Assembly (NCBI GenBank): GCA_041879355.1
Contig: CP089922.1
Location: 462,172 to 526,171 of the forward strand
Length of the DNA: 64,000 nt
Reading direction: 5' to 3'
Source: Cyanobacteria bacterium LVE1205-1
Lineage (GTDB): Bacteria > Cyanobacteriota > Cyanobacteriia > CAIUCS01
This document shows positions 18,805 to 64,000 of this stretch, piece after piece. Each line of letters starts with the position of its first letter. Position 1 is the stretch's first letter. The notes beneath the pieces were generated by a model. It saw only the letters and a list, made by a program, of their open reading frames with translations. It made no database searches and was not told where the DNA came from. A program made the position numbers and the translations under genes.

Positions 18805-19554
18805 ATGGTTATCGTAGCCAGCTTTTACAAATTTTTCCCCTTTCCTGACTCCATTCACCTCAGATCCGCTTGGCTCGCTTACTGTCAGGTTCAACAGATT
18901 CGGGGTACCATCCTCATGGCTCCGGAGGGGATTAATGCCACTATTTCAGGAAGTCGTGATGCAATCAATCAGGTGCTTCAGTATATTTGCAGCCATCCCG
19001 GTTTAAGTACATTAAAGCATCAGGAAAGTGTTTGGAATGTTCATCCCTTTGATCAGTTAAAGGTTAAGTTTAAACAAGAAATTGTTACCTTAGGAATGCC
19101 CACAGTTGATCCTAGTCAAGGTACCGGTGAGTTTGTTCATCCTTCAGATTGGAATGCTATTTTGACTGATCCAACTGTCACCGTGGTTGATACTCGTAAT
19201 ATCCATGAAGTGGAAATGGGTACTTTTTTTGGGGCAATCAATCCACAAATGTTTTGTTTTCGTCAGTTTCCCTATTATGCTAAGCAACAGTTAATGCCGT
19301 TGCAGTCAAAAAAAGTTGCTATGTTTTGTACCGGAGGAATCCGATGTGAAAAAGCCTCGTCCTATTTATTAAAGGAAGGTTTTAAACAGGTGTATCAATT
19401 AGACGGTGGCATTATTCATTATTTACAAACAGTCTCAAAATCAGACAGTCTTTGGCACGGGGATTGTTTCGTTTTCGACCAGCGCAATCATCTTAATCTT
19501 GAGCATAGGTCAACTTGGTTTGGGGTAAGTAGCCTTCCAAATCTGGTTAACTGA
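18805..19554 (+). CDS. trhO: Rhodanese-domain protein, tRNA uridine(34) hydroxylase TrhO-like (UPF0176)
   Basis: N-terminal VASFYKF, rhodanese active-site CTGGIRCEK. Confidence 0.7.
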   Translation: MVIVASFYKFFPFPDSIHLRSAWLAYCQVQQIRGTILMAPEGINATISGSRDAINQVLQYICSHPGLSTLKHQESVWNVHPFDQLKVKFKQEIVTLGMPTVDPSQGTGEFVHPSDWNAILTDPTVTVVDTRNIHEVEMGTFFGAINPQMFCFRQFPYYAKQQLMPLQSKKVAMFCTGGIRCEKASSYLLKEGFKQVYQLDGGIIHYLQTVSKSDSLWHGDCFVFDQRNHLNLEHRSTWFGVSSLPNLVN

Positions 19555-19606
19555 CAAAAGTTGTACGCCCTCACCCCTAACCCCTCTCCCAGGGGGCGAG
19601 GGTGGA
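19546..19606. repeat. Repeat family B, truncated copy (left half of the element at 40930..41077)
   Basis: CTGACAAAAGTTGTACGCCCTCACCCCTAACCCCTCTCCCAGGGGGCGAGGG nearly identical to 40933..40984. Confidence 0.75.
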
Positions 19607-19647
19607 AGTAGTTCCATTTCTGTTAAGATATGTGTGCGCTTGCCCTG

Positions 19648-21030
19648 CTATAAACCGAGTATAGCCAGGTTACCAATGTCAAAAAGACCAGCCATACAAC
19701 CAATCATTAATGTAGCTAAAGTTGCTGCCCACAGAGCTTTCCATCCAATTTCAACTATTTCAGACTTACGTTGAGGAACCAACCCTACCAGCCCCCCCAC
19801 AAATATACCAACCGAAGGAATATGGGTAAAACCGCAAAGGGCATAACTCAAGATTAATAGGGCGCGATGACTCAATACCCCTTGATTGGACAAATTAGCC
19901 AATTGTAAATAAGCAGGGATTTCAGTTTCTAATACCCTTTGTCCTAGTAACACAGCCCCAGCCCAAAGTTCAGTCCATTGGAATGAGATTCCTAGACAAA
20001 AGGTCAAGGGTAAAAAGAAAACCCCCAATATGTTTTGAATGCTAACTACTTGGAAAAAATTACCGATGAACTGTAACCCTACGTTAGGGCTTTGTGCTAA
20101 GGAAGCAAAGTTAAGGAAAACCAGATTGACTAAGGACACCAATCCAAGGACTGCAATCAAAATGGCGGCGATTGTAACAGCCAGTTTAACTCCTTCCATG
20201 GCTCCTTCAATCACACTGTCCATGGGGCTAATCCGTAGAGTATCCAAACTGTTTTCATCAATTTCTGGTGGTAAACTTCCCAATGTTTGAGGCAACTCTC
20301 GTTCTGGTACTAATAGTTTAGACATGACAAAACAGGCAGGAATCGCCATAAATGAAGCAGATATTAAATGTCCGGTAATCCCGGGAAAGACCGGTCTTAA
20401 AATACTTGAATAAAGTGCCAATACTGTAGATGCGATGCTTCCCATGCCAGATGCTAAAATGGTGCATAATTCACTACGGGTCATGGCAGATAAAAATGGT
20501 CTGACGACTAAGACTGATTCAATACCAACAAAAATATTCGCTGCTCCACTCAATGATTCTGCCCCGCTTAAGTACATTGAACGACAAAATACATGGGCAC
20601 AAAAATTAATGATGGGTTGTATGACCCTCAAATGATAGAGCAACGCAATGAAAGAAGAAAAAAAGATAACGGACGGCAGTGCTCTAAATGCAAAAATATA
20701 CCCTAAACTAATGTGATCTGGGCTGAGGCGATCGCCCGGAATGGGTACATAAGGGGAGGTCAAGGCTCGGGCAATCCAGCGACCTGCTAAAACTGGACCA
20801 GGGGTAATAGTTGGATTAGGAACCAATAGAGAGCCAAAGACAAACCGCGAACCAGCCTCTGCTGAGTCTAAAACTGCATTAACACCATTATTCAGTGCTG
20901 AAAATAGGATACGAGTTGGCGGTACAGTAAATACCAGAAGTGCTAAAACAAACTGGATACCAATGCCCCAGGCAATTACACGCCAAGGGGGCGGCTGCGA
21001 TCCTCCGAACCTAACCATGCAATTCCACAA
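19648..21030 (-). CDS. Concentrative nucleoside transporter, NupC/CNT family
   Basis: 460-aa polytopic membrane protein with FVFGSLL motif; true start may be downstream of 21030. Confidence 0.6.
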   Translation of the reverse strand: MWNCMVRFGGSQPPPWRVIAWGIGIQFVLALLVFTVPPTRILFSALNNGVNAVLDSAEAGSRFVFGSLLVPNPTITPGPVLAGRWIARALTSPYVPIPGDRLSPDHISLGYIFAFRALPSVIFFSSFIALLYHLRVIQPIINFCAHVFCRSMYLSGAESLSGAANIFVGIESVLVVRPFLSAMTRSELCTILASGMGSIASTVLALYSSILRPVFPGITGHLISASFMAIPACFVMSKLLVPERELPQTLGSLPPEIDENSLDTLRISPMDSVIEGAMEGVKLAVTIAAILIAVLGLVSLVNLVFLNFASLAQSPNVGLQFIGNFFQVVSIQNILGVFFLPLTFCLGISFQWTELWAGAVLLGQRVLETEIPAYLQLANLSNQGVLSHRALLILSYALCGFTHIPSVGIFVGGLVGLVPQRKSEIVEIGWKALWAATLATLMIGCMAGLFDIGNLAILGL

Positions 21031-38358: not shown

Positions 38359-38471
38359 TTGTCATCTCCCACCAGCGGCAAAGGTAAAATATTTATTAAT
38401 ATAACTATTCTAATACAGTTGTCAGGAAATTAAGAGGTACTTTCAGGGACAGTGCTTTGACATTCCCTCGC

Positions 38472-40029
38472 TTAAAAGACTGGGGATTCTAGAGGCTCTA
38501 TTTCTTCATCCGTTTGTATCCTTGGCGGCGGAAAGTCTAGGGATCGTCCATAAATATCAGTGAAATACCGCAGGCGATGGCAAATTTCCTCACATTCTAC
38601 TGCCTCCGTGCGATATCGCCAATCCCAATTACCAGTGGCAGTCCCAGGGGTATTCATGCGTGCATCTGTCCCCAGTCCTAAAATGTCTTGAAATGGGAAT
38701 AAAGCCCAGTTGGCTACAGAACTCATGGCGTGACGGATCAAATCCCAATGAATACCATCGAAATTATTGTAACCTAAATAACTGCGGATATGGCGTTGTA
38801 AATCGTCGGATCGACTGTAAAACCAGCCCACAGTGGTGTCGTTATCATGGGTGCCTGTATAGACAATGGAGTTTTTCCGATACTGAAAGGTCAGATAGGG
38901 ATTTCGGGCATCTGAATCGAAGGCAAACTGCAAAATATTCATGCCGGGGAAATCAAAGCGATCGCGCAGGGCTTCCACCTCCGGGGTAATCACCCCTAAA
39001 TCTTCAGCCATAATGGGCAGGGAGCCTAGTTTTTGGGCTAAGGTTGTAAACAATTCCTCCCGGGAGCCTGCACCCATTCTCCATTTATAGCAGTGGTTTC
39101 CCCCTTTGGAACTGCCCAATAGGATTCAAAGCCACGAAAATGATCCACCCGGATCACATCTACAATCTCTAACATGGATTTAAACCGCTGTACCCACCAC
39201 TTAAATTGATTTTTTTTCAGATGCCTCCAGTTATAAACTGGATTGCCCCACAACTGTCCCGTTTTGCTGAAGTAATCAGGGGGAACACCTGCCATCAGCG
39301 CCACTTCTCCCGTTTTTTCATCCAAGTGAAAGTTTTCTGGATTTGCCCACACATCTGCACTATCGTGGGCTACATAAATGGGGATATCCCCAATAATGGT
39401 AATGCTTCGGTCATTGGCATAGGTTTTTAAGGCATTCCATTGACAATGGAATTGATATTGCAAAAATTGGTGATAAAAAATCTCATCAGTAAATTGTTTG
39501 CGGTATAAGGCTAAGGTTTCGGGTTTACGCTGCCGTAGATTTGGATCCCATTGATACCAGCTTTGATTAGGGTGAGCATACTTACACGCCATAAATAGGG
39601 CATAATCATCCAGCCAACTGGATTGATGGATGCAAAATTGTTCAAACTGTTTTTGAATTGCTGGGGTTGCCTGTTGCCGGAATCGGGCACATGCTAACCG
39701 AAATAACCCATCCTTAAAGGCAATCACCCCATCAAAATCAATATGATCCAGCGGAAAGTCAGGACTATTTGCCAGTTCAGATTTATCCAGCCATCCCTGC
39801 TCTTCCAATAATTCAGGACTAATGAGTAGGTGGTTACCGGCAAAGACGGAATAGGAAAGGTAGGGGAATTACCATATCCCGTAGGTCCTATGGGCAGGAT
39901 TTGCCAATAATGTTGATGACTGGACATCAAAAAATCAATGAACCGATAGGCAGATGAACCAAAATCTCCAATTCCATATGGACTGGGGAATGAACTGGGA
40001 TGGAGTAAAATTCCACTACCTCTGGGCAT
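38472..40029 (-). CDS. malQ: 4-alpha-glucanotransferase (disproportionating enzyme, GH77); split into three ORFs by apparent frameshifts
   Basis: ORFs 39724..40029 (GILLHPSS...GIGDFG), 39038..39808 (IIGDIPIYVAHDSADVW, VDHFRGF), 38472..39119 (EDLGVITPEV) are colinear. Confidence 0.85.
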
Positions 40030-51786: not shown

Positions 51787-52250
51787 ATAGATCTAGAGGT
51801 AAAACCGCTTTGATTGTAGCTTGAGTGCAAACGCCTTAACTCCCTCGTCCCGGGAGTGGGGAAGGAAGAACCCAGGTTCTGTCCAAGACGACATTGGACT
51901 AGGTAGGACACTCCTTCCCTCCATAGGGATGGATTTTCACGTCCAAACGCTTCCGCATAGCGTTGATATTCAACTAGTACCGCTTGCCAATACTTAGCGA
52001 CCCTATTGGATAATCATGTCCCCATGACCAAAATAAAAATCGCTTTCTTTGTTCCAGCTTGGGGTGCCAACGTCCAATTACTGGTGGTTTAATCAACCCA
52101 TCCCACCAATATGTTTTCTTCGCCCATGCTTGTAATTCTAGTAACACCATCATAACCCCATAGTTTAGTGTAGGATTATCTTGATTGAGGGGGAGAACTG
52201 CCTTTTAATGCCCCAGTCCTATAAAATATGAGTAGAAAACCATTTTTGAA

Positions 52251-53609
52251 ATGAGTACTATTCCCTGGGAACTTACATTTAGTCAAATTCAGAAAATGTT
52301 ACTGGCGGAGGTAGAGAATCGAATTCCTAGTCAGGAACCGGAACACTTTACATTGGAATTGACAGCTGAAAATAGTCAATTTATACGCTTCAATCATGGA
52401 CGAGTCCGGCAGAGTGGTTCGGTTGTCAATGCTGAACTTACCTTGACCGTGGTGGATGATCATCGAACAGTTTATGGGAGTTTTCCTTTTACTGGCGACT
52501 TGGAAAGGGATGGGGATTTGATGATGGCAGTTCTCAAGGATTTACGGCAGGATTTACCCCAATTACCCGTAGACCCTCATTTGGTCATACCTGAAGGAAC
52601 TGAGATAAGTCGATCAATCTTTACGGGACACCTACTATCCCCTGACGATATTTTGAATGGGATTTTACCCATCGTTGAAACTACAGACCTAGTTGGTTTA
52701 TATGCCGGGGGTTCATTAATTCGTGCTTATACAGATTCTGCTGGAAAGTTCCATTGGTTTTCCACGGAATCTTTTACCTTTGATTATTCCTTATTTGCCG
52801 TTACAGGACAGGCGGTCAAAGGGACGTTTGCTGGTAGTCACTGGATCCAATCTGATTATGAATCTCATTTGATGGCTGCCAGGCAACAACTTCAACAGAT
52901 TAACCAACCCCCAATGAGGATTCCTAAGGGTCAGCACCGCACCTACTTTGCTCCGGCAGCGGTGGCAGAAATATTAGGATTATTTTCATGGGGAGGAGTT
53001 AGTCACGCTTCAATTCAACAGGGTGGTAGTGCTTTAGCCTCTCTTTATCGTGGAGAATCCCACTGGTCTGAACAATTTAACCTAAAGGAAAATTTTACTC
53101 CAGGGTTAGTCCCTAGGTTTAATGAATTGGGTGAAACAGCGCCAATGGAGCTAACATTGATCTCTGCCGGACGGATGGTTAATAGTTTAATTTGCTCTCG
53201 TTCTGCCAGAGAGTATGGGGTAGAATCCAATGGTGCTGCATTGGGGGAGTATCTACGTTCTCCTGAAGTCGGGACTGGGAAGATGGCTGCCACTGATATT
53301 CTTAAAACTTTAGGAACAGGGTTATATGTGTCCAACCTTCATTACCTTAATTGGAGCGATCGCCCAACAGCCCGGTTTACAGGCATGACACGTTATGCCT
53401 GTTTTTGGGTGGAAGGAGGCGAAATTGTGGCACCAATCCATAATCTACGATTTGATGAAAGTCTTTATCGTTGCTTTAGTCCAGAACAACTCATTAGTGT
53501 GACTGAGTTTCAAGAGTTTATCCCTGAAGTGAGTACCTATGGTCATCGACAATTAGGGGGAGTTTGGGTGCCTGGAATGGTAATTGATAACTTTACATAT
53601 ACTTTATAA
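52251..53609 (+). CDS. TldD/PmbA-family metalloprotease
   Basis: 452 aa; C-terminal GTGLYVSNLHYLNW...RFTGMTRYACFWVEGGEI characteristic of TldD/PmbA. Confidence 0.75.
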   Translation: MSTIPWELTFSQIQKMLLAEVENRIPSQEPEHFTLELTAENSQFIRFNHGRVRQSGSVVNAELTLTVVDDHRTVYGSFPFTGDLERDGDLMMAVLKDLRQDLPQLPVDPHLVIPEGTEISRSIFTGHLLSPDDILNGILPIVETTDLVGLYAGGSLIRAYTDSAGKFHWFSTESFTFDYSLFAVTGQAVKGTFAGSHWIQSDYESHLMAARQQLQQINQPPMRIPKGQHRTYFAPAAVAEILGLFSWGGVSHASIQQGGSALASLYRGESHWSEQFNLKENFTPGLVPRFNELGETAPMELTLISAGRMVNSLICSRSAREYGVESNGAALGEYLRSPEVGTGKMAATDILKTLGTGLYVSNLHYLNWSDRPTARFTGMTRYACFWVEGGEIVAPIHNLRFDESLYRCFSPEQLISVTEFQEFIPEVSTYGHRQLGGVWVPGMVIDNFTYTL

Positions 53610-55542: not shown

Positions 55543-56499
55543 ATGCCAAATCCTCCTAACTTACCCCCGTCTGAAGTGACCCCTGAAGACGTTTTCCTGA
55601 ACCGTCGAAAATTCATGAAGACAGCCATATGGGTCGGTTCTACCATTACCACAAGTAGTGTTTATCAAACCCTCAAGCCTGCCCCTAAAGTGGAAAATAC
55701 AGGGAAAGACATTGTGGTTTCCGCTTCACCATCCAAATCTGCCTCCACTGACGAGTTAAGTCGTTTTCAAGACATTGCTGGCTATAACAATTTTTACGAA
55801 TTTTCAACTCAAAAATCTGCAGTTGCTGCCCGCGCCCAATCCTTCGTTACGAAGCCATGGACAGTACAAGTAGGGGGGTTGGTACAAAACCCCATTGCCC
55901 TGAGTTTGGATGATATTATGGGGATGGAGGCAATAGAGCGCATCTATCGATTCCGGTGTGTGGAGGGCTGGTCCATGGTCATTCCCTGGGTTGGTTTTCC
56001 CTTATCCAAATTACTGGAACAGGTAAAACCGAAGGATGGAGCCACCCATGTTGCTTTTGAAAGTTTTTTCGATCGCCAGCAAATGCCCTATGCTCTCTTT
56101 TCTGGTATTCCCTTCCCTTATCTGGAAGGGTTACGACTAGATGAGGCAATGCACCCCCTCACCTTATTAGCTACGGGTCTCTATGGGAAAACTTTGCCAA
56201 ACCAAAATGGTGCCCCGGTGCGGTTGGTTGTTCCTTGGAAGTATGGATTTAAGAGTATTAAGTCTATCGTAAAGATTACCGTCACCGACCATGAACCAGT
56301 AACCACTTGGAATCGGGCAAATCCTAGGGAATATGGGTTTTATTCTAACGTTAACCCCACCGTAGACCATCCCCGTTGGTCCCAAGCCCAGGAACGTCGG
56401 ATTGGTGAAACTAGGCTTCGTCCCACCTTGATGTTTAACGGTTATGGTGAAGAAGTTGCCCATCTTTATGATGGTATGGATCTTCGTCGTTATTTTTGA
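55543..56499 (+). CDS. msrP: Protein-methionine-sulfoxide reductase catalytic subunit MsrP (YedY-type molybdoenzyme)
   Basis: Tat-like N-terminus ([12 protein letters not shown]), sulfite-oxidase-family core with RFRCVEGWS. Confidence 0.85.
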
Positions 56500-56502
56500 C
56501 CT

Positions 56503-57089
56503 ATGAATTCTTTAAGAGCTGATAGTCAATTTCATCGTCATTTAATTCTGGTCAATGGATTAATCCCAATCCTTTGGATTGGGATGGATGGATGGCAGGG
56601 GCAGTTGGGGGCAAATCCGGTGGAGTTTGTCACCCGAGCTACTGGTATATTATCCTTACTTTTTTATTACTTACTCTGGCGGTAACCCCACTCCGACATT
56701 TATTCCACTGGATTTGGCTAATTAAACAACGTCGATTGCTGGGGCTCTTTTCTTTCTTTTATGCCATCCTTCATTTGTTAGCCTATGTGGGGGGCGATCG
56801 CGGCTGGCAACTACTCTCCATTCCCGCTGACATCATCCGTCGCCCATTTATTACTGTTGGGATGATCAGTTTGTTATTAATGGTGCCTTTGGCAATCACC
56901 TCTACCCATGCCATGATTAAGCGATTGGGGGTAAAACAATGGAAAATACTTCATCGTCTGGTTTATATTATTGCCATTGGCGGGGTTATCCACTATGCCT
57001 TAATTGTAAAGTCAGATTTTACCTATCCCTTTTTATTTGCCATTGTTCTCACTTTTTTCCTTGGTTATCGCCTTCGGTTAACTTCCTAA
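56503..57089 (+). CDS. msrQ: Methionine-sulfoxide reductase heme-binding subunit MsrQ (YedZ); frameshift at T-run near 56665
   Basis: Two ORFs (56503..56685, 56574..57089) in different frames; conserved His in transmembrane helices (HLLAY, HYAL); 3 bp after msrP. Confidence 0.8.
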
Positions 57090-57192
57090 AAGTACTTTGG
57101 GGATTCGTCATCTAATCCGTGACAGGTTGGTGTCTACCACCCGATGGTGGAGTTTCATGAATACTCCCCAGGGTCATCTTCTCCCTGTATCT

Positions 57193-58131
57193 TCAAAAGG
57201 GGGGGTCTTCATCAGGCAACAGAAACTCACAAATTGCCTGACTAATTAATTCTGGTTGATCACCAATGGCATCATGACCACAATTGGGAAGAAGGTTTAA
57301 ACGGGAATTAGGGAGACGGCGTTGTAATTCGTAGCCATCTTCAACGGGAAACCACCGGTCCTGGTCACCCCATAGAATCAGAACGGGGCAGGTAATTTCA
57401 GGTAACCGTAACTGTATATCAGTGATGAGATTTGGTAAACCCTGGACTAATTGATCCAGTTCACGGGCTGCCAACTGTAAATCTTCAACCAATTTCGTGA
57501 AAGTACCTGGAATGTAAATTTGGGGATAGGTGATCCCATAGACCTCTGAAGCAGTAATTTGGGATGGATCAAATACAACTTGGGCACGGGCTTTTTCAAC
57601 GATGAACAAAATTGGTTGGGCTAAACGTTTAGCCCAGCCCCATTGATCAACCCACCGTACTACTTGGATGGGAAGATGAGCCATGAGTTGCATTCCCAAG
57701 CTAGGTAATCGACGGGGAAAGATGGGAGCATTAATAATAATTAGTTTGCGAACTAAATGGGGATGGGTTTGAACGGCTGCTAAGGTCGTCAACGCTCCCA
57801 AGGATTCGGCGGCAATAAAAGCGGGTTCATGGCATAGCCCTTGAATAATGCGTATTAATTCAATTACCTGATGACCGGGTAATTCTGGCAGTAAGGGCTT
57901 GTCCGAATATCCGCACCCTTTAGCATCCACACAAATCACTCGAAAATGGTTCGCCAAGTGGTGGATAGTGTGCCGCCAACTATAGCTCCAACTGGCAATT
58001 CCATGGATGAGGAATAATGGAGGTCCCTCTCCTTTTTCGCCATAGGCAATATGAATACCTTCACCAGTTGCATCTTCAATGGATAATAATTGCCGTCCCT
58101 GGGGAAATGTAGACTGCCACCATTCTTCCAT
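57193..58131 (-). CDS. Alpha/beta hydrolase
   Basis: HGIASWSYSW, nucleophile elbow AESLGAL, C-terminal GHDAIGDQPE. Confidence 0.75.
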   Translation of the reverse strand: MEEWWQSTFPQGRQLLSIEDATGEGIHIAYGEKGEGPPLFLIHGIASWSYSWRHTIHHLANHFRVICVDAKGCGYSDKPLLPELPGHQVIELIRIIQGLCHEPAFIAAESLGALTTLAAVQTHPHLVRKLIIINAPIFPRRLPSLGMQLMAHLPIQVVRWVDQWGWAKRLAQPILFIVEKARAQVVFDPSQITASEVYGITYPQIYIPGTFTKLVEDLQLAARELDQLVQGLPNLITDIQLRLPEITCPVLILWGDQDRWFPVEDGYELQRRLPNSRLNLLPNCGHDAIGDQPELISQAICEFLLPDEDPPF

Positions 58132-58143
58132 TGTGGGTTCCTC

Positions 58144-58518
58144 TTAACGGGTAATTTCTACAACAATATTGCCACTAAAATTAGGGATCGGTGGTGATAC
58201 CTTGGTTAGACATACTTTTACCTGCTGAACCAACGGGAATTGTAATAGGTTGGATGCAATGACAGATGCTAATTTCTCTACCAAAGCATATTTAGACTGG
58301 TGAACTAAATCAGTCACTTGGGCAATGACAGTACGGTAGTCTAGGGTGTCAGTCAAGTTGTCAGTATTGCCAGCGATGTGGAGGTCTAACCCCAAGGACA
58401 AATTGATTTCAAACCATTGCCCTAAAGTTTGTTCTTCGGGCAATGCACCCGTGTACCCATAACAACGAATGGCATTGATATGAATCCAATCCATAGATAT
58501 ATCAACAAATGTATCCAC
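58144..58518 (-). CDS. folB: Dihydroneopterin aldolase FolB
   Basis: 124 aa; YGYTGALPEE...NLTDTLDYRTV pattern. Confidence 0.8.
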   Translation of the reverse strand: MDTFVDISMDWIHINAIRCYGYTGALPEEQTLGQWFEINLSLGLDLHIAGNTDNLTDTLDYRTVIAQVTDLVHQSKYALVEKLASVIASNLLQFPLVQQVKVCLTKVSPPIPNFSGNIVVEITR

Positions 58519-59066
58519 TAAATCCGGTTTTCTAGATATTGACCAATCATCAATTGCTCCTGTGCCCGTGAAATAATTGTTTGACGAACACGATAGTGGG
58601 AACCAACTAGTTTTAATTCCTCCTCAAATACATTTCCATCATACTCGGTATGAAGGGTCATGGTGTGGTTATCCCCCATGGTGTAGCGGGCAATAATCGG
58701 GCTTGAGGTATTAAACCCACGATCTCGATATAGGGATGAGCCGAGGACACCAAATACAGTTGATCCATTTACCTGACGGGGACTAGGACCTACATAATCA
58801 CTTTCCCATGTCGTCAGGGCTCCAAATTTTAATAGTGTTTCATCCCCAAGCCCATGGACTTGGGCTAAATGGATTAATCGTTCATCACCAAAGGGCAGAA
58901 ATTCAACCGTAATGGAGCTGACCACTTCTTGTACTGTATCGTTTTTTAAGGTATAGTAACGCCGTTGCGATCGCCAGTTACCATGGGATTGACGAAAAAA
59001 TTCTTCTGCTCGTGTTTCCGATTGGGAATGGTCTGATAGTCGGACAGCTGGGGATAAGATGGTCAT
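58518..59066 (-). CDS. Phycobiliprotein lyase, CpcS/CpeS family
   Basis: EFFRQSHGNWRSQRRYYTL N-terminal signature, NGSTVFGVLG...LYRDRGF, TLHTEYDGNVFEEEL. Confidence 0.65.
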   Translation of the reverse strand: MTILSPAVRLSDHSQSETRAEEFFRQSHGNWRSQRRYYTLKNDTVQEVVSSITVEFLPFGDERLIHLAQVHGLGDETLLKFGALTTWESDYVGPSPRQVNGSTVFGVLGSSLYRDRGFNTSSPIIARYTMGDNHTMTLHTEYDGNVFEEELKLVGSHYRVRQTIISRAQEQLMIGQYLENRI

Positions 59067-59406
59067 AGATGTGCAAATTTAGACTGGTTATGGGAAGTAC
59101 ATTGAAAACAGTATTACAAAAAGCAAGTAACTCTCTTGGGATGGGTTGAGGATTTTGATGTCCAACTCTTGCCACAAAATATAAGCCAAGACTTGGACAT
59201 CTCCAATTCCATTGATACCGACATGGGGCAACCCTCAATGCCCCAGCCTGTAAACGAGATTACAAGGGAAAATTAAATGATTCTATATAAAATGTAACAA
59301 ATCTTAAAAATTTTTGCATTGATTTCCCTTTCAGGGGAAGGATATTTTGGTTGTCGGGAGAATGGGTCTAAAACTCCGTTCTTTTAGTATAGTACTCCCC
59401 ATATTC

Positions 59407-60606
59407 TGGACAGGTTAATAAGATAGTCTCGCTGCCAATAGACTATGAAACTATACGGAGGAGATTGCAAGCCATGCAGCGAAAACGACATACCCCAGAG
59501 TTTAAGACGAAAGTGGTCGGGGAATAAAACGATCAACGAAATCGCCAGTGAAATGGGGATTCACGCAACCCAGATTACTCAATGGAAAAAACAGGCTCAG
59601 GAAGGACTCAAGGAGGTCTTTGCGGATCGTCGAGGGAAGAGCCAGAGCCAGGAACCCTTAATTGAGCAGCTTTACCAGAACATTGCTCGGCTCCAAGTGG
59701 AACTGGAGTGGTTGCAAAAAATCTGGTCTTACCTCTTGAATCAAAGCGGCAACTCATTGAACCCGTAAACCGAGAGATCAGCATTGTGCGTCAGTGCGAA
59801 TTGCTGGAACTCAATCGAAGTAGCGACTACTACGAAGCAGCCAGGGAAAGCTCACATAAGGAGTACCTGATGGGAAAGTTCGATGAGCAGTATACCCAAA
59901 CTCCGTTCTACGGGGTATTGGGAATGACGGAAGTCCTGCGAGCCCAAGGAGAAGAGGTCAATCCTAAACAAGTCCGTCGTCTACTCAGGGTAATGGGTTT
60001 AGAAGCTATCTATCCCAAACCCAAAATCTCATCGTCAGGTAAGAATAGTCGTCGCTATCCCTATCTGCTCAGGGGAAAAGCCATTGAGCGTCCCAACCAC
60101 GTTTGGAGTACTGACATCACATACATTCGACTGGACAAGGGATTTATTTACCTTGTAGCGGTGATTGACTGGTACAGCCAGTATGTCCTCTCATGGGAAG
60201 TCTCCAATACCCTGGATGTCCACTTTTGTCTGGATGTTCTGGAAAGTACTCTCTCTCAAGGGATGCCAGAGATTTTCAATACCGACCAGGGCAGCCAATT
60301 TACCAGTCTTGCTTTTACTGACCGTCTACTCAAAGGAGGGATAACAATCAGTTAGGATGGGCGTGGTCGAGCCCTAGACAACATTTTTGTGGAACGGATT
60401 TGGCACTCATTGAAATACGAGGAGGTGTACCTAAAGTCCTACAGGTCTGTGTCAGAGGCAATTCAAGGGATTGGGGACTATTTCAGATTTTATAACCACG
60501 ATCGTTTACATCAGTGGTTGGATTATCAGACACCAGCTATGGTTCACAGAAAAGGCAATGCCTGCTTGTAATGAATTCGCATTGAGTCTTTCTGTCTTAT
60601 GTCCAG
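59407..60606 (+). mobile_element. IS3-family insertion sequence, about 1.2 kb, with imperfect terminal inverted repeats
   Basis: Left end TGGACAGGTTAATAAGATAGTCTC, right end (reverse complement) TGGACATAAGACAGAAAGACTC; internal orfA/orfB transposase. Confidence 0.75.
59473..60571 (+). CDS. IS3-family transposase OrfA-OrfB (HTH + DDE integrase core); disrupted by an extra frameshift in orfA and an in-frame stop near 60355
   Basis: OrfA MQRKRHTPEFKTKVV... then NKTINEIASEMGIH; OrfB VWSTDITYI, NTDQGSQFTS, ALDNIFVERIWHSLKYEEVY; A-rich frameshift window GCAAAAAAT. Confidence 0.8.
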
Positions 60607-60701
60607 CATTAACCAACAAATGCCTTACAAGGAGGTGATGTAATTAATGTAACACCAACAACAAATGCACTGCTAAGTGAAATTACTTCTTAAATTAGCA
60701 T

Positions 60702-61436
60702 TGCATAATAAAGTATGAGTTCAAGGAAGAGAGATGAAATGTCCACAGTGTGGATCAGAACACATACGCAAAAATGGTATTCAGAAAGGAAAACAAAATC
60801 CCATTTGCGCTGAATGTGGACGACAGTTTATAAATCCCAGTGAACAAACCAAAGCATTCCCAGAAACTACCAAACAAACTTGCCTGAAGATGTATCTCAA
60901 TGGCATGGGATTCAGGGCTATAGAAAGAGTGATGGGAGTACATCACAGTCATTGATTGGGTTCAACAAAAAGGTAAGAAGTTACCTGATGCAATTGCTCC
61001 AGAGAATATCCCCGATGTGGGCGAATGGGATGAACTGGAAACATTTGTCGGGTCAAAAAAACAAGATTTGGGTGTGGACAGCAGTAGACCATTTCCGTAA
61101 GGGCATCCTAGCTTGGACTTTAGGTGATCATAGTGCTGAGACTTTTGAGCCATTATGGACAATAGTAGTGGCATGGCAATGCTATTTCTATGTCACTGAT
61201 GGATGGACTGTATATCCAAGTTTTATCCCTGATGGTGATCAGAGTATTAGCAAGACTTACATGACGCGAGTTGAGGGAGAAACTCGCGGTTACGTCACTA
61301 TCTGGCACGATTGCACCGTAAAACTTTCTGCTATTCCAAGTCTGTAGATATGTTGCGTTACTCTGTGCGGTTGCTGATTCATTATCTTCATGACCCTTCT
61401 GTCCTGTTCTCTTCATGATTCATACTTTATCCTGCA
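60702..61436 (+). mobile_element. IS1-family insertion sequence, about 735 bp
   Basis: Terminal inverted repeats TGCATAATAAAGTATGAG (60702..60719) and reverse complement of CATACTTTATCCTGCA (61421..61436); InsA/InsB-like ORFs inside. Confidence 0.65.
60734..61347 (+). CDS. IS1-family transposase InsA-InsB (zinc-finger InsA fused to InsB by frameshift)
   Basis: InsA CPQCGS...CAECG zinc finger and HTH; InsB KIWVWTAVD...YVTDGW...ISKTYMTRVE. Confidence 0.7.
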
Positions 61437-61495
61437 ACGCCCTTAAATTCACTCTTTTTCTGTCTTGACATTGGGGAGTACCATAGATAACTCTG

Positions 61496-61968
61496 ATGCA
61501 GCGCCAAGTCTGCTGGGCGCACTTGAAACGAGATTTTACCCGCATCGCAGAACGGAGTGGGATGTCTCAATCGATAGGAGAAGGCTTGCTGGCGGAGGAG
61601 AAAAAGCTATTTCAGCTCTGGTATCAGGTGCGAGACGGCACCTCACTCGCAGCACCTTTCGCCAGACGGTTCAACCCATCTAGGCGGAGGTCAACCGATG
61701 GTTGCAAGACACCGCCAGCTATGACATTGGGGCTCAGGAAAAGACTCCGCTGTCCAAAACCATGCGCACATGCTGACAACTTCTGGCGATTGAGTCGACC
61801 CTATGGACGTTTGTCGATATCGTCGGGATTGAACCCACCAACAATGGGGCACAGGGAGCCTTACGTCCCGCTGTGATCTGGCAACGCACCAGTTTCGGCA
61901 CTCAGTCTCAGACAGACAGCGAGTTTATCGCCCGCCTGTTGAAGGTGATCTCTTCCTTGCAGACCTAA
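61496..61968 (+). pseudogene. IS66-family-like transposase C-terminal remnant
   Basis: CWAHLKRDF motif, then in another frame IEPTNNGAQGALRPAVIWQRTSFG; no N-terminal part, frame-disrupted. Confidence 0.45.
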
Positions 61969-62195
61969 CAGCGAGATGTCTTGGACTTCTTGATCCAGTC
62001 CATTCAGTCCAGATGCTTAGGGCAGGAACACCCTGTCCTGTGACCTCAACCCTCTGCCGGGGAGAAAACCCCTTTAACAGCGTAGCCCCCTGAATCTTTA
62101 CGTCTTGCCATCGGTTATTGAGAAGTTACTAAATTAAATATACTTACTTTTTAGATGGACTAAACCCAGTACTTAATTCATCAGGGGGGATGGCA

Positions 62196-62912
62196 TTAAC
62201 CGGGGGGTATCAGGGGGGTAACAAAGTGTCCTATACAAGTGGCACCAGATGCCATCTCTAGGGCACTAGCAATAATATCTCCTTTCAATTGGGCAGTTTG
62301 TGTTAATATTAATTTCCCCTCTGCTACTACATTGGCATAAACTTTTCCATAAATAGTTATATTCACTGCTCGAATCTCTGGACCTTGGATAGTTCCGGCA
62401 GTAGCCACTTCAATATCACCTTCAGCTTCTACCGTCCCGAAAATCTTACTATCTACCCGTAAGTTACCTTTAATTTGTAATATGCCAAAATCCTCTTGGG
62501 TTTCATTAGATGGCAATCCGGGGGGTAAACGAGTACCTGAGTAAGTTGAGGGGGATGGCTGTAATTCGGGAATATTACTGGAAACAATATGTCCAACATA
62601 GGAAGCCCCAGCAGCAATATCAAGAGCATCAACAACTATATCTCCTTCCAATCGAGCAGAGCGACTTAAACTAAGTTTACCATCCGCTACTACGTTAGCA
62701 TTAACTGTTCCATTGACAGTCAGGTTTACACCTCTAACCTCATGACCTCGAATTGAACCATCGGCAGAGACTTCTACATCCCCATCAACGTCTACTGAGC
62801 CTTCAATTTTACCGTCAACTCGAAGATTACTCTTCTTGACAGTCAGTGTTCCTACAAATTCACTGCCACTACTAACATAGGTGACGGTATTAGATGCTTG
62901 GCGATTGTACAT
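62196..62912 (-). CDS. Tandem bactofilin-domain protein
   Basis: Two repeats of a bactofilin-like module (NLRVDGKIEGSVDVDGDVEVSADGSIRG... and NLRVDSKIFGTVEAEGDIEVATAGTIQG...), each ending with a GH(I/F)V segment. Confidence 0.7.
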   Translation of the reverse strand: MYNRQASNTVTYVSSGSEFVGTLTVKKSNLRVDGKIEGSVDVDGDVEVSADGSIRGHEVRGVNLTVNGTVNANVVADGKLSLSRSARLEGDIVVDALDIAAGASYVGHIVSSNIPELQPSPSTYSGTRLPPGLPSNETQEDFGILQIKGNLRVDSKIFGTVEAEGDIEVATAGTIQGPEIRAVNITIYGKVYANVVAEGKLILTQTAQLKGDIIASALEMASGATCIGHFVTPLIPPG

Positions 62913-64000
62913 TGGATTACCTAATAATGAATTTTTAGTAGAATAGAAAAATCAATTCGAGTCATTGTATAGAAATTCTGGATGTCTGATGACATTCCTA
63001 AACAGTAAAAGAAGGAATCTTTGACTCAAAGTATACGGAATCAGTGAATCCTCCTCTGCTGAAGAAATCCATAAACTTTAGGGTACTGGGAAGATTGGGT
63101 TTTATCCTTAGGAAAGAGTTTTCCCCTTTAATCCTTTTGACTTTTCCAGCACTGGCTTACATAGTTTAGGCTTACATAGTTTAGAAATAAAAGTCGATTC
63201 TTAATTTTAACTTTGAAGTTAACCCGGTGATGAACTGATTTAGGTTATACCTGTCAGCACCCCAATTATTATCCAACATCTCAAAGCCTGATTACGGGAA
63301 AAAAGAAGAACCAAGACTACCTTATTAATTAAATAAAGTTGCGTAGCGGTTTTCAATAGAGTGAGACATCAATAGCTTAATTTTACCCCCTAGACTTTTA
63401 TCTACTCAGATCCACCCTCTAGTCCCCCAAGTTGGGGGGTTGATGGGATTCACCGTGTACTTCATTCAAACGAAACCTACTATGTTCTTCTTTGACCTTT
63501 AAGGTTGCTCCAAGTACCAGTATAAATTTACGTTAGTATTATGAAAGATGTTACACCATTAACCCATGCTAAAAATACAGAGTCCTGAACCTTTTTCAAC
63601 TACGCAAAAATATATTCCCAAAAACGCTCAAAAAAAAGGTTGTGTAGGCTACATTCAACATGGGATACTTGATTCTTATGGTCGCTACCTGTTCTTGAAT
63701 CTGGAATACAAGCAATTTAATTAAAGTATACCAACAGGACATCTGGAAAAATTAAAAATAATTGAGAAATACAATGATAGAACCTACATTCCGCAGCAGC
63801 AGTGCCAAATTCAGAAGGATGGTAGGTCATTTCAGCGATCGCCCAGATTATTAAGAATTACAAAGTTATCTTGGAATAAAACTTTCAGAGCCATCCAAAT
63901 TTGAATTTGGAATTATAGCTGTAGCCATATTGGTTAGGATGTAAGCTAGAAATATAGACCCTTCCCCTTGCGTACCATGCCTAAACCCTATAGCCTTGAT

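What the first reader, a model, noticed from the sequence alone, without database searches (positions are those of the whole stretch)
59407..61968. Insertion-sequence cluster: IS3-family element, IS1-family element and an IS66-like remnant
Three different IS families occupy 2.5 kb between the CpcS-family gene and the tandem-bactofilin gene. The IS3 copy has recognisable inverted repeats but a disrupted orfA and an internal stop in orfB. The IS1-like element has about 17-bp inverted repeats. The IS66-like transposase is only a C-terminal fragment. This marks a recombination hotspot.
Basis: partly seen in the sequence, partly recalled or inferred. Interest (0 to 1): 0.5.

Follow-up and report, generated by a model that had tools for sequence, protein, structure and literature searches.

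The report
Nested dead insertion sequences (IS1-in-IS3, IS66 stub)
This 2.7-kb stretch between a phycobiliprotein-lyase gene and a bactofilin gene of an uncultured cyanobacterium is an ordinary graveyard of three decayed jumping genes, one nested inside another, and it marks a spot where the genome has been rearranged.

Summary
Three insertion-sequence families (IS3, IS1, IS66) lie between cpcS and the bactofilin gene, with strong transposase homology (NCBIfam IS3 304 bits, IS1 251 bits; IS66 fragment 75% identical to an IS66 family transposase).

The elements are nested, not side by side. Intact relatives (81% nt identity, several contexts) align to 59388-60696 and resume at 61442-61485. So the IS3-like element spans 59388-61485. 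The IS1-like element (60697-61441, 745 bp) sits inside its 3' untranslated end, flanked by a perfect 8-bp target duplication, CTTAAATT. The IS3 inverted repeats proposed at 59407/60606 are not real (4/24 ungapped). The true ones are 59388-59413 / 61460-61485.

The IS66 stub runs from 61486, abutting the IS3 right end, to a GTAA-type terminus at 62101, not 61968.

All three elements are dead:
- IS3: 14-nt deletion in orfA, CAG->TAG in orfB, 106-nt 3' deletion.
- IS1: three frame disruptions.
- IS66: about 325 N-terminal codons missing, four stops, one frameshift.

A 97%-identical sister strain loses homology 0-7 nt from the IS3 left end. "Rearrangement hotspot" is therefore partly supported. 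This is ordinary biology and of low interest.

The parts
59388..61485 (+). IS3-family element, a pseudo-element interrupted by IS1. It has 1345 bp of its own sequence, against 1465 bp in intact relatives.
   Evidence: blastn to intact relatives L002-L007 (about 81% nt) covers 59388-60567 and 60589-60696, then resumes at 61442-61485. Flanks diverge at these ends in 5 contexts. NCBIfam NF033516 304 bits.
59388..59413 (+). IS3 left terminal inverted repeat (TATAGTACTCCCCATATTCTGGACAG)
   Evidence: the repeat finder pair I1, 20/26 complementary to 61460-61485. It coincides with the start of homology to all intact relatives.
59474..59768 (+). IS3 orfA (HTH), broken by a 14-nt deletion between 59518 and 59519. 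The N-terminal 17 codons are in another frame.
   Evidence: Three-frame translation. Alignment to relatives shows CTTGAAGCCTTAAA missing. Pfam HTH_28/HTH_Tnp_1.
59716..59721 (+). Remnant of the IS3 programmed -1 frameshift A-run: A6 here, A9-A10 in relatives. orfB remains in the -1 frame relative to the orfA C-terminal part.
   Evidence: Alignment and translation.
59708..60571 (+). IS3 orfB (HTH_21 + rve DDE domain), with a premature TAG at 60353-60355 (CAG in relatives). The native stop is at 60569-60571.
   Evidence: Pfam rve E 4e-20, rve_3/rve_2 on the downstream piece. Alignment. Homologues up to 89% identical.
60572..60696 (+). IS3 3' untranslated region, proximal part, with a 106-nt deletion between 60587 and 60588.
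   Evidence: Alignment to 1465-bp relatives.
60689..60696 (.). Left copy of the IS1 target-site duplication, CTTAAATT
   Evidence: Present once in uninterrupted IS3 relatives and twice here.
60697..61441 (+). IS1-family element (745 bp), a pseudo-element nested in IS3. IRs are 60697-60718 / 61420-61441 (18/22; the right end reads GGCGTTG...).
   Evidence: NF033558 251.5 bits. tblastn to cyanobacterial IS1/ISAcma4. Other copies on the same contig align over 60698-61442. Lesions, from the alignment: 5-nt deletion at 60947/8, an A7 run at 61055-61061 (A8 in relatives), and a 1-nt deletion near 61280.
61442..61449 (.). Right copy of the IS1 target-site duplication, CTTAAATT
61460..61485 (+). IS3 right terminal inverted repeat (...TTGGGGAGTACCATA)
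   Evidence: 95% identical to the right ends of L002-L007 (E about 1e-14), with flanks diverging after it.
61486..62101 (+). IS66-family remnant: the last ~200 codons of a ~510-aa transposase plus the right terminus ...CCCCCTGAATCTTTAC. It carries premature stops at 61681, 61774, 61966 and 62041, one frameshift within 61642-61678, and AER->AQG near 61852. The native stop is at 62083-85.
   Evidence: tblastn with P0121/P0122 covers 61487-62082. DNA homology to L010/L011 covers 61494-62101 (82%) and ends exactly at 62101, where the flanks diverge. E 6.6e-85. No N-terminal part occurs anywhere in the window.
59067..59387 (.). Retained cpcS upstream intergenic region, which is the left flank of the cluster
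   Evidence: 97% identical to sister-strain contigs L012/L013 up to 59380 and unrelated beyond.

Best explanation
The region is a nested pile of three dead insertion sequences, built by successive transposition and at least one IS-associated rearrangement.

Inferred order of events:
1. An IS66-family element (single-transposase type) landed about 95 bp downstream of the bactofilin gene. Its right terminus is still at 62101.
2. An IS3-family element inserted into the IS66 transposase gene, at roughly codon 325.
3. Everything to the left of that IS3 (the IS66 5' two-thirds and whatever lay beyond) was lost or exchanged. This happened either by IS3-mediated adjacent deletion or by recombination between two IS3 copies. 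It brought the IS3 left end next to the cpcS upstream region.
4. An IS1-family element transposed into the IS3 3' untranslated region, making an 8-bp duplication (CTTAAATT).
5. All three decayed by point mutations and small indels.

None can now encode a transposase. At most, the IS1 and IS3 ends could be mobilised in trans. The cluster has no function of its own. It is a neutral scar and a substrate for homologous recombination.

Shown: family membership, boundaries, nesting, the TSD, the lesions, the truncation of IS66 at the IS3 end, and the loss of synteny with the sister strain at the IS3 left end.

Inferred: the order of events and the deletion or recombination mechanism.
For: Nesting: intact 1465-bp relatives align to 59388-60696 and continue at 61442-61485, with the 8 bp CTTAAATT present once in them and twice here.

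IS3 ends: five independent contexts diverge exactly outside TATA(A/G)TACTCCC... and ...GGGGAGTACCATA.

IS1 ends: a full second copy (95%) and two end fragments (98-99%) on the same contig align over 60698-61442. The IRs have the IS1-type GGnnnTG start (PMC6807381 for the motif).

IS66: homology starts at 61487, directly after the IS3 end, and stops at 62101, where L010/L011 also leave the element. Its N-terminal half is absent from the window.

Lesions.

Rearrangement: sister-strain contigs (97% nt) match 57582-59380 and are then unrelated to anything in the window's right flank.

The same truncated OrfB protein also occurs on a 3.28-Mb contig (listed). One search reports one further place with mostly the same neighbouring genes, which was not displayed, so the arrangement is probably reproducible across assemblies.
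Against: No empty site was recovered, so the pre-insertion state is unknown. The sister strain has different sequence to the right of the breakpoint rather than the bactofilin flank.

The IS3 copies carry only a TA dinucleotide on both sides and no 3-5-bp duplication. TSD mismatch therefore cannot be used to prove the deletion or recombination step.

The source is a metagenome assembly. Another contig of the same sample (L009) is visibly chimeric, joined inside this very IS1 sequence, so a mis-join at one of the outer junctions cannot be fully excluded.

The rest of the 2.48-Mb contig could not be searched for the missing IS66 half or for other IS3 copies.
Confidence: 0.85

Rival explanations
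1. Three independent elements lie side by side: a complete IS3 (59407-60606) with its own IRs, then a separate IS1 (60702-61436), then an IS66 fragment (to 61968).
For: ORF order along the sequence. A 7-nt complementarity, CTGGACA/TGTCCAG, exists at 59406-12 / 60600-06.
Against: Intact relatives continue 90 nt past 60606 and pick up again after the IS1 at 61442-61485. The proposed IRs are 4/24 complementary. The IS1 TSD is a sequence internal to IS3. IS66 homology extends to 62101.
Confidence: 0.03
2. The IS66 fragment was already a truncated relic lying next to the cpcS upstream region, and the IS3 then inserted exactly at its broken end. No IS3-associated deletion or recombination is needed.
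For: IS elements often insert at or near other IS ends. No TSD evidence distinguishes the scenarios.
Against: It requires the insertion point to coincide, to the nucleotide, with a pre-existing break (61485/61486). The sister strain's homology ends 0-7 nt from the other end of the same IS3, as expected if the IS3 itself is the rearrangement joint.
Confidence: 0.15
3. Part of the arrangement is a metagenome mis-assembly. Repeated IS copies from different loci or strains were collapsed or joined, so one of the outer junctions is artificial.
For: Contig Ga0496538_0684 (L009) of the same sample matches 59539-60842 at 99.85% and then switches abruptly to unrelated GC-rich sequence inside IS1. That is a chimeric join at this repeat.
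Against: The nested IS1 has a perfect TSD and both junctions are continuous. L009 independently contains the same IS3-IS1 junction. The same pseudo-OrfB also occurs on a 3.28-Mb contig, and one search reports one similar place not shown. The IS3 here is unique within the 64-kb window and the 10 kb beyond it.
Confidence: 0.05

Closest known systems
IS3 family (ISfinder). The nearest sequences found are uncharacterised metagenomic/cyanobacterial copies: P0001 at 89% aa, 1465-bp elements in L002-L007 at 81% nt, and 'IS3 family transposase' of Leptolyngbya sp. GB1-A1 at 63% aa.
   Same: Two-ORF layout: an HTH OrfA and an HTH_21 + rve (DDE) OrfB in the -1 frame, joined at an A-run. Imperfect terminal IRs of about 26 bp. 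Length 1.3-1.5 kb. Full-length match to NF033516.
   Different: Inactivated by a 14-nt deletion in orfA, CAG->TAG in orfB, a shortened slippery run and a 106-nt 3' deletion. It carries a nested IS1. The left end starts TA(T)A rather than TG. Copies are flanked only by TA, not by a 3-5-bp duplication.
IS1 family, cyanobacterial branch: ISAcma4 of Acaryochloris marina pREB4, and IS1 family transposases of Microcystis aeruginosa NIES-2481 and Nostoc plasmids.
   Same: 745 bp. N-terminal zinc ribbon + HTH followed by the DDE_Tnp_IS1 domain. An A-run at the InsA/InsB junction, as in the Microcystis copy. IRs with the GGnnnTG start. 8-bp TSD. 65-72% aa identity.
   Different: Three frame disruptions, one of which is shared with a second copy on the same contig. 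The first base of the left IR is A instead of G.
IS66 family, single-transposase (ISBst12-like) type. The nearest sequence is 'IS66 family transposase [Leptolyngbya sp.]' (P0121, contig QBLT01000383.1).
   Same: The C-terminal DDE_Tnp_IS66 region is 75% identical. The right terminus is identical to the relative's and reads GTAAAGATTCAGGGGG in reverse complement, i.e. the GTAA-type IS66 end.
   Different: Only the last ~36-40% of the gene and one terminus remain. There are four premature stops, one frameshift, and loss of the conserved AER motif (AQG). The left IR and TSD are missing.

Membership tests
IS3 family | Transposase with an rve-type DDE catalytic domain (OrfB) preceded by an HTH OrfA | tested here: met
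   Pfam rve E 4e-20, HTH_21, rve_3, HTH_Tnp_1. NF033516 304 bits against a cutoff of 160, model 1-368/369.
IS3 family | orfB in the -1 frame relative to orfA, with an A-rich slippery site in the overlap | tested here: met
   The frame relation is kept. The A-run is A6 at 59716-21 here and A10 in L002 (-1 configuration); L005/L006 have A9. Actual frameshifting was not tested.
IS3 family | Imperfect terminal inverted repeats of 20-40 bp, ending 5'-TG...CA-3' (from ISfinder/Siguier et al., recalled from memory) | tested here: inconclusive
   The IRs are present: 20/26, and conserved in 5 other copies. The right end reads ...CCA(TA). The left end reads (TA)TAG/TAA, not TG.
IS3 family | 3-5-bp target-site duplication | tested here: not met
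   Only a TA dinucleotide is shared on both sides in the window and in the two fully flanked relatives, L005 and L006. No longer repeat was found. The sample is small.
IS1 family | IS1-type transposase: N-terminal zinc finger/HTH (InsA) plus DDE_Tnp_IS1 (InsB) | tested here: met
   NF033558 251.5 bits against a cutoff of 100, model 1-199/199. NF050000 zinc domain. Pfam DDE_Tnp_IS1 87.7 bits.
IS1 family | Terminal IRs beginning GGnnnTG | tested here: met
   The right end is GGCGTTG. The left end is AGCATTG here and GGCATTG in copy 2. The motif is as cited in PMC6807381.
IS1 family | 8-9-bp target-site duplication; length about 740-1180 bp | tested here: met
   A perfect 8-bp CTTAAATT at 60689-96 and 61442-49, single in uninterrupted IS3 relatives. 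Element length 745 bp.
IS66 family | DDE_Tnp_IS66 transposase | tested here: met
   Pfam PF03050 49.6 bits against a cutoff of 23.1, profile positions 148-280/284. 75% identity to a named IS66 family transposase, E 6.6e-85. NF033517 gives only 102 bits (cutoff 180) because just model positions 222-384/387 are present.
IS66 family | Terminal IRs starting GTAA (recalled from ISfinder) | tested here: met
   The right terminus ...CCCCCTGAATCTTTAC at 62101 reads GTAAAGATTCAGGGGG in reverse complement. It is identical in L010/L011, and the flanks diverge after it. The left terminus is absent.
IS66 family | 8-bp target-site duplication and a complete element with both ends | not testable with these tools
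   The left two-thirds of the element is missing from the window.

The most novel reading that the evidence does not exclude
The most novel reading has two parts.

1. This IS3 lineage (1465 bp, ~270-nt 3' UTR, TA on both flanks, no 3-5-bp duplication) could be a distinct IS3 subgroup with TA-specific insertion.

2. The IS1 copies on this contig share an inactivating 5-nt deletion, yet the window copy has a fresh-looking 8-bp TSD. A defective IS1 lineage may therefore be propagating by trans-mobilisation, acting as a MITE-like parasite of an intact IS1 elsewhere in the genome.

Neither reading is excluded by the data and neither is demonstrated.
Probability: 0.15. Interest if true: 0.2.

Novelty: new member of a known kind. 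Interest (0 to 1): 0.1.

Why it matters
It matters little beyond annotation. The result corrects the element boundaries and shows nesting, which gives a relative order of insertion events. It documents that this uncultured cyanobacterium, whose PmbA is no more than 60% identical to any species representative, carries decayed members of three common IS families. It also flags the cpcS-bactofilin interval, and the 8 kb beyond it, as a rearranged, IS-rich zone that also contains a recent duplicate of the bactofilin gene. For genome annotators, the practical lesson is that ORF-based IS calls here (five to six small 'genes') should be collapsed into three pseudo-elements. Contigs of this metagenome can also be chimeric at these repeats.

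Tried and rejected
1. Other copies in the window. blastn of 59200-62200 against all 64 kb found none, so boundaries had to come from external copies.

2. Plasmid DNA search for the IS3. It returned only distant proteobacterial IS3 elements (about 65% over 30-35% of the query), which were useless for finding the ends.

3. Empty site in named genomes.
- A genome-contig scan with CpcS found nothing.
- A scan with the neighbouring PmbA/TldD protein found 80 loci, but at no more than 60% identity. None has cpcS, folB or bactofilin in synteny.

4. A metagenome-contig scan with the bactofilin, aimed at the right-hand flank in sister strains, found nothing. Not even the source contig came back.

5. 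The sister-strain contigs L012/L013 gave the left breakpoint but not an empty site. Their 671-nt continuation matches nothing here except a 39-nt repeat at 38457-38495. It has no tRNA, no Rfam hit and no long ORF.

6. Rfam on 56000-64000 gave only a sub-threshold miRNA chance hit.

7. The promoter/terminator scan was at chance level, so there is no evidence that the cluster supplies or removes regulatory signals.

8. L009 was considered as a second genomic copy of IS3. This was rejected because it turns abruptly into unrelated GC-rich sequence inside IS1, which marks a chimeric contig.

9. The review tables of IS family features (Siguier et al.) are not in the held library. The TG/CA, GTAA and DR-length criteria are therefore quoted from memory. 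The exception is GGnnnTG, which PMC6807381 supports.
Full report
**What is at the coordinates**

ORF listing and three-frame translation of 59380-62130 show broken transposase reading frames on the + strand. They lie between a CpeS/CpcS-family lyase gene (58518-59066, - strand) and a two-domain bactofilin gene (62196-62912, - strand).
- Pfam on the raw ORFs gives HTH_28/HTH_Tnp_1 (59445-59768), HTH_21 + rve (59708-60355, E 4e-20) and rve_3/rve_2 (60389-60571).
- It also gives DDE_Tnp_IS1 (60880-61347, E 2.7e-11) and a weak DDE_Tnp_IS66 hit (61496-61876, E 8e-4).
- After joining the frames, NCBIfam gives IS3 304 bits (cutoff 160; full model), IS1 251.5 bits (cutoff 100; full model) and IS66 102 bits. 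The IS66 score is below the 180 cutoff because only model positions 222-384/387 exist.
- Pfam on the joined IS66 piece gives 49.6 bits.
- Database searches agree. IS3 OrfB has thousands of homologues, up to 89% identical. The IS66 piece is 75-76% identical to 'IS66 family transposase [Leptolyngbya sp.]' at E about 1e-85. The IS1 protein is 65-72% identical to IS1 family transposases on Microcystis, Nostoc and Acaryochloris (ISAcma4) plasmids.

**True boundaries: the elements are nested**

No second copy exists in the window, so I fetched intact relatives of the IS3 through their proteins. These are L002-L007: 1465-bp elements, 81% nt identity, in at least four different flanking contexts.
- blastn shows that they align to 59388-60567 and 60589-60696. 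They then continue without loss at 61442-61485 (95% identity, E about 1e-14).
- In the multiple alignment, the 8 bp CTTAAATT occurs once in the relatives and twice in the window (60689-60696 and 61442-61449). These two copies bracket 60697-61441.
- The IS1-like element is therefore an insertion inside the 3' untranslated end of the IS3-like element, with a perfect 8-bp target-site duplication of the length typical for IS1.
- The IS3 termini are the pair that the repeat finder ranked first: 59388-59413 / 61460-61485, 20/26 complementary.
- In the contexts where flanking sequence is available, it diverges exactly outside TATA(A/G)TACTCCC... and ...GGGGAGTACCATA.
Their 'inverted repeats' are 4/24 complementary.

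**IS1 limits**

IS1 limits are confirmed by other copies on the same source contig, just beyond the window. The contig is JGI 3300045937, Ga0496538_0457, 2.48 Mb; L008 = window - 49785.
- A full copy at L008 19406-20142 is 95% identical.
- An inverted 163-nt right-end fragment is 99% identical.
- A 103-nt left-end fragment is 98% identical.
- The IRs are AGCATTGCATAATAAAGTATGA / GGCGTTGCAGGATAAAGTATGA (18/22). This is the GGnnnTG start that PMC6807381 notes is shared by IS1-family elements, citing table 1 of Siguier et al. 2015.

**IS66 remnant**

tblastn with relatives covers 61487-62082, which is residues 115-313 of P0122. The relative's locus L010 shows a further 218-aa DUF6444/zf-IS66 ORF upstream, so the full protein is about 510 aa and only the last ~200 codons survive here.
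- DNA homology to L010/L011 runs to 62101. It ends at the shared terminus ...GCGTAGCCCCCTGAATCTTTAC, after which all three sequences differ. In reverse complement this is a GTAA-type IS66 end.
Position 61966-68 is merely one of its premature stops.
- No trace of the N-terminal part exists anywhere in the 64-kb window.
- The fragment begins at the nucleotide after the IS3 right end (61486).

**State of decay**

IS3, compared with the intact relatives:
- a 14-nt deletion in orfA (59518/59519);
- the slippery A-run shortened to A6 (59716-21; A9-A10 in relatives), although orfB is still in the -1 frame;
- CAG->TAG at 60353-55 in orfB;
- a 106-nt deletion in the 3' UTR (60587/60588);
- the IS1 insertion.

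IS1:
- a 5-nt deletion at 60947/8, shared with copy 2;
- an A7 run where copy 2 and the Microcystis element have A8, at the InsA/InsB junction;
- a 1-nt deletion near 61280.

IS66:
- premature stops at 61681, 61774, 61966 and 62041;
- one frameshift within 61642-61678;
- the conserved NNAAER motif changed to NNGAQG.

None of the three can encode a transposase.

**Rearrangement evidence**

The only close relative of the host that I could find is a sister strain: CpcS 97% identical, on contigs L012 and L013.
- Its DNA matches the window at 97% from 57582 to 59380, which is 0-7 nt from the IS3 left end.
- From there it continues with 671 nt unrelated to the cluster or to the bactofilin flank.
- Together with the exact truncation of IS66 at the IS3 right end, this makes the IS3 a rearrangement joint. 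The cause would be adjacent deletion, or recombination between two IS3 copies.
- Target duplications cannot test this, because all copies of this IS3 lineage are flanked only by TA.
- To the right, outside the window, the source contig carries IS630-like (DDE_3) fragments, a DDE_Tnp_1 transposase gene, the IS1 copies and fragments, and a 98% duplicate of the bactofilin gene with an IS1 fragment abutting its 5' side and the DDE_Tnp_1 transposase gene within about 50 nt of its 3' side.

'Hotspot' is a fair but circumstantial description. No empty site was recovered. The wider searches showed no close named relative and no conserved synteny.

**Function and mechanism**

The cluster is a neutral relic. 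All three transposase genes point away from and opposite to the flanking genes. Promoter-like and terminator-like sites are at chance frequency, and Rfam finds nothing. The 321-bp cpcS upstream region is retained and conserved with the sister strain. The only plausible activities left are two: serving as homology for recombination, and possibly trans-mobilisation of the IS1 or IS3 ends by intact copies elsewhere.

**Caveat**

The source is a metagenome assembly. A second contig of the same sample (L009) matches 59539-60842 at 99.85% and then switches abruptly to unrelated GC-rich sequence, which is a chimeric join inside IS1. On the other side, the same truncated OrfB also occurs on a 3.28-Mb contig, and one search reports one further place with mostly the same neighbouring genes that was not displayed. 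L009 also contains the identical IS3-IS1 junction. I therefore rate mis-assembly of the cluster itself as unlikely.

**Verdict**

This is an ordinary, already well-understood kind of feature: decayed new members of the IS3, IS1 and IS66 families. The anatomy is corrected to nested rather than adjacent, with new boundaries of 59388-62101. The 'hotspot' interpretation is partly supported. Interest is low.

Noticed in passing
L008 18143-18846 (about window +49785, i.e. beyond the window end) compared with window 62220-62922: There is a second bactofilin gene (237 aa), 98% identical in DNA to the window's gene. An IS1 left-end fragment abuts its 5' side (L008 18847-18949), and a DDE_Tnp_1 transposase gene lies on its 3' side (L008 17173-18096). 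This looks like a recent IS-associated gene duplication. The last 8 codons differ between the two copies.
   Followed up: partly
L008 14666-15066, 17173-18096, 18847-18949, 19242-19404, 19406-20142: The IS-rich zone continues for about 8 kb to the right of the window. It holds two DDE_3 (IS630-like) fragments, a 307-aa DDE_Tnp_1 transposase, a second full (also defective) IS1 copy, and two IS1 end fragments. One fragment is cut exactly where copy 2 is inserted, i.e. IS1 nested in IS1.
   Followed up: partly
window 60947/60948 and L008 copy 2 (19406-20142): The window IS1 and the second copy share the same inactivating 5-nt deletion in the InsA HTH region, yet the window copy has an intact 8-bp TSD. 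This suggests either that an already defective IS1 transposed (trans-mobilisation) or that there was gene conversion between copies.
   Followed up: no
L009 (contig Ga0496538_0684) 1-1305 compared with window 59539-60842: This contig of the same metagenome starts inside the IS3 and carries the same IS3-IS1 junction (99.85% identical). At window-equivalent 60842 it switches abruptly to visibly GC-rich sequence unrelated to the window. It is almost certainly a chimeric assembly at the IS1 repeat.
   Followed up: yes
L002-L007 IS3 relatives and window 59388/61485: All copies of this IS3 lineage are flanked by TA on both sides, and the two fully flanked copies show no 3-5-bp target duplication. 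These elements also have an unusually long (~270 nt) conserved 3' untranslated region. Homopolymer length at the frameshift site varies between relatives (A9 against A10).
   Followed up: partly
window 38457-38495 and L012 (sister strain) tail: A 39-nt sequence containing a hairpin (CCCTCGCTTAAAAGAC.GGG) is shared at 92% between an unrelated place in the window and the sister strain's sequence beyond the breakpoint. It may be a short dispersed repeat or MITE end.
   Followed up: no
window 52250-53608 (PmbA/TldD) and 58518-59066 (CpcS): The host has no close named relative. PmbA is at most 60% identical to any of the species representatives returned (best hits Coleofasciculaceae, Microcoleus, Thainema, Leptolyngbya JSC-1). 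CpcS is at most 69% identical to anything except the one sister strain. The source appears to be a poorly sampled cyanobacterial lineage.
   Followed up: partly
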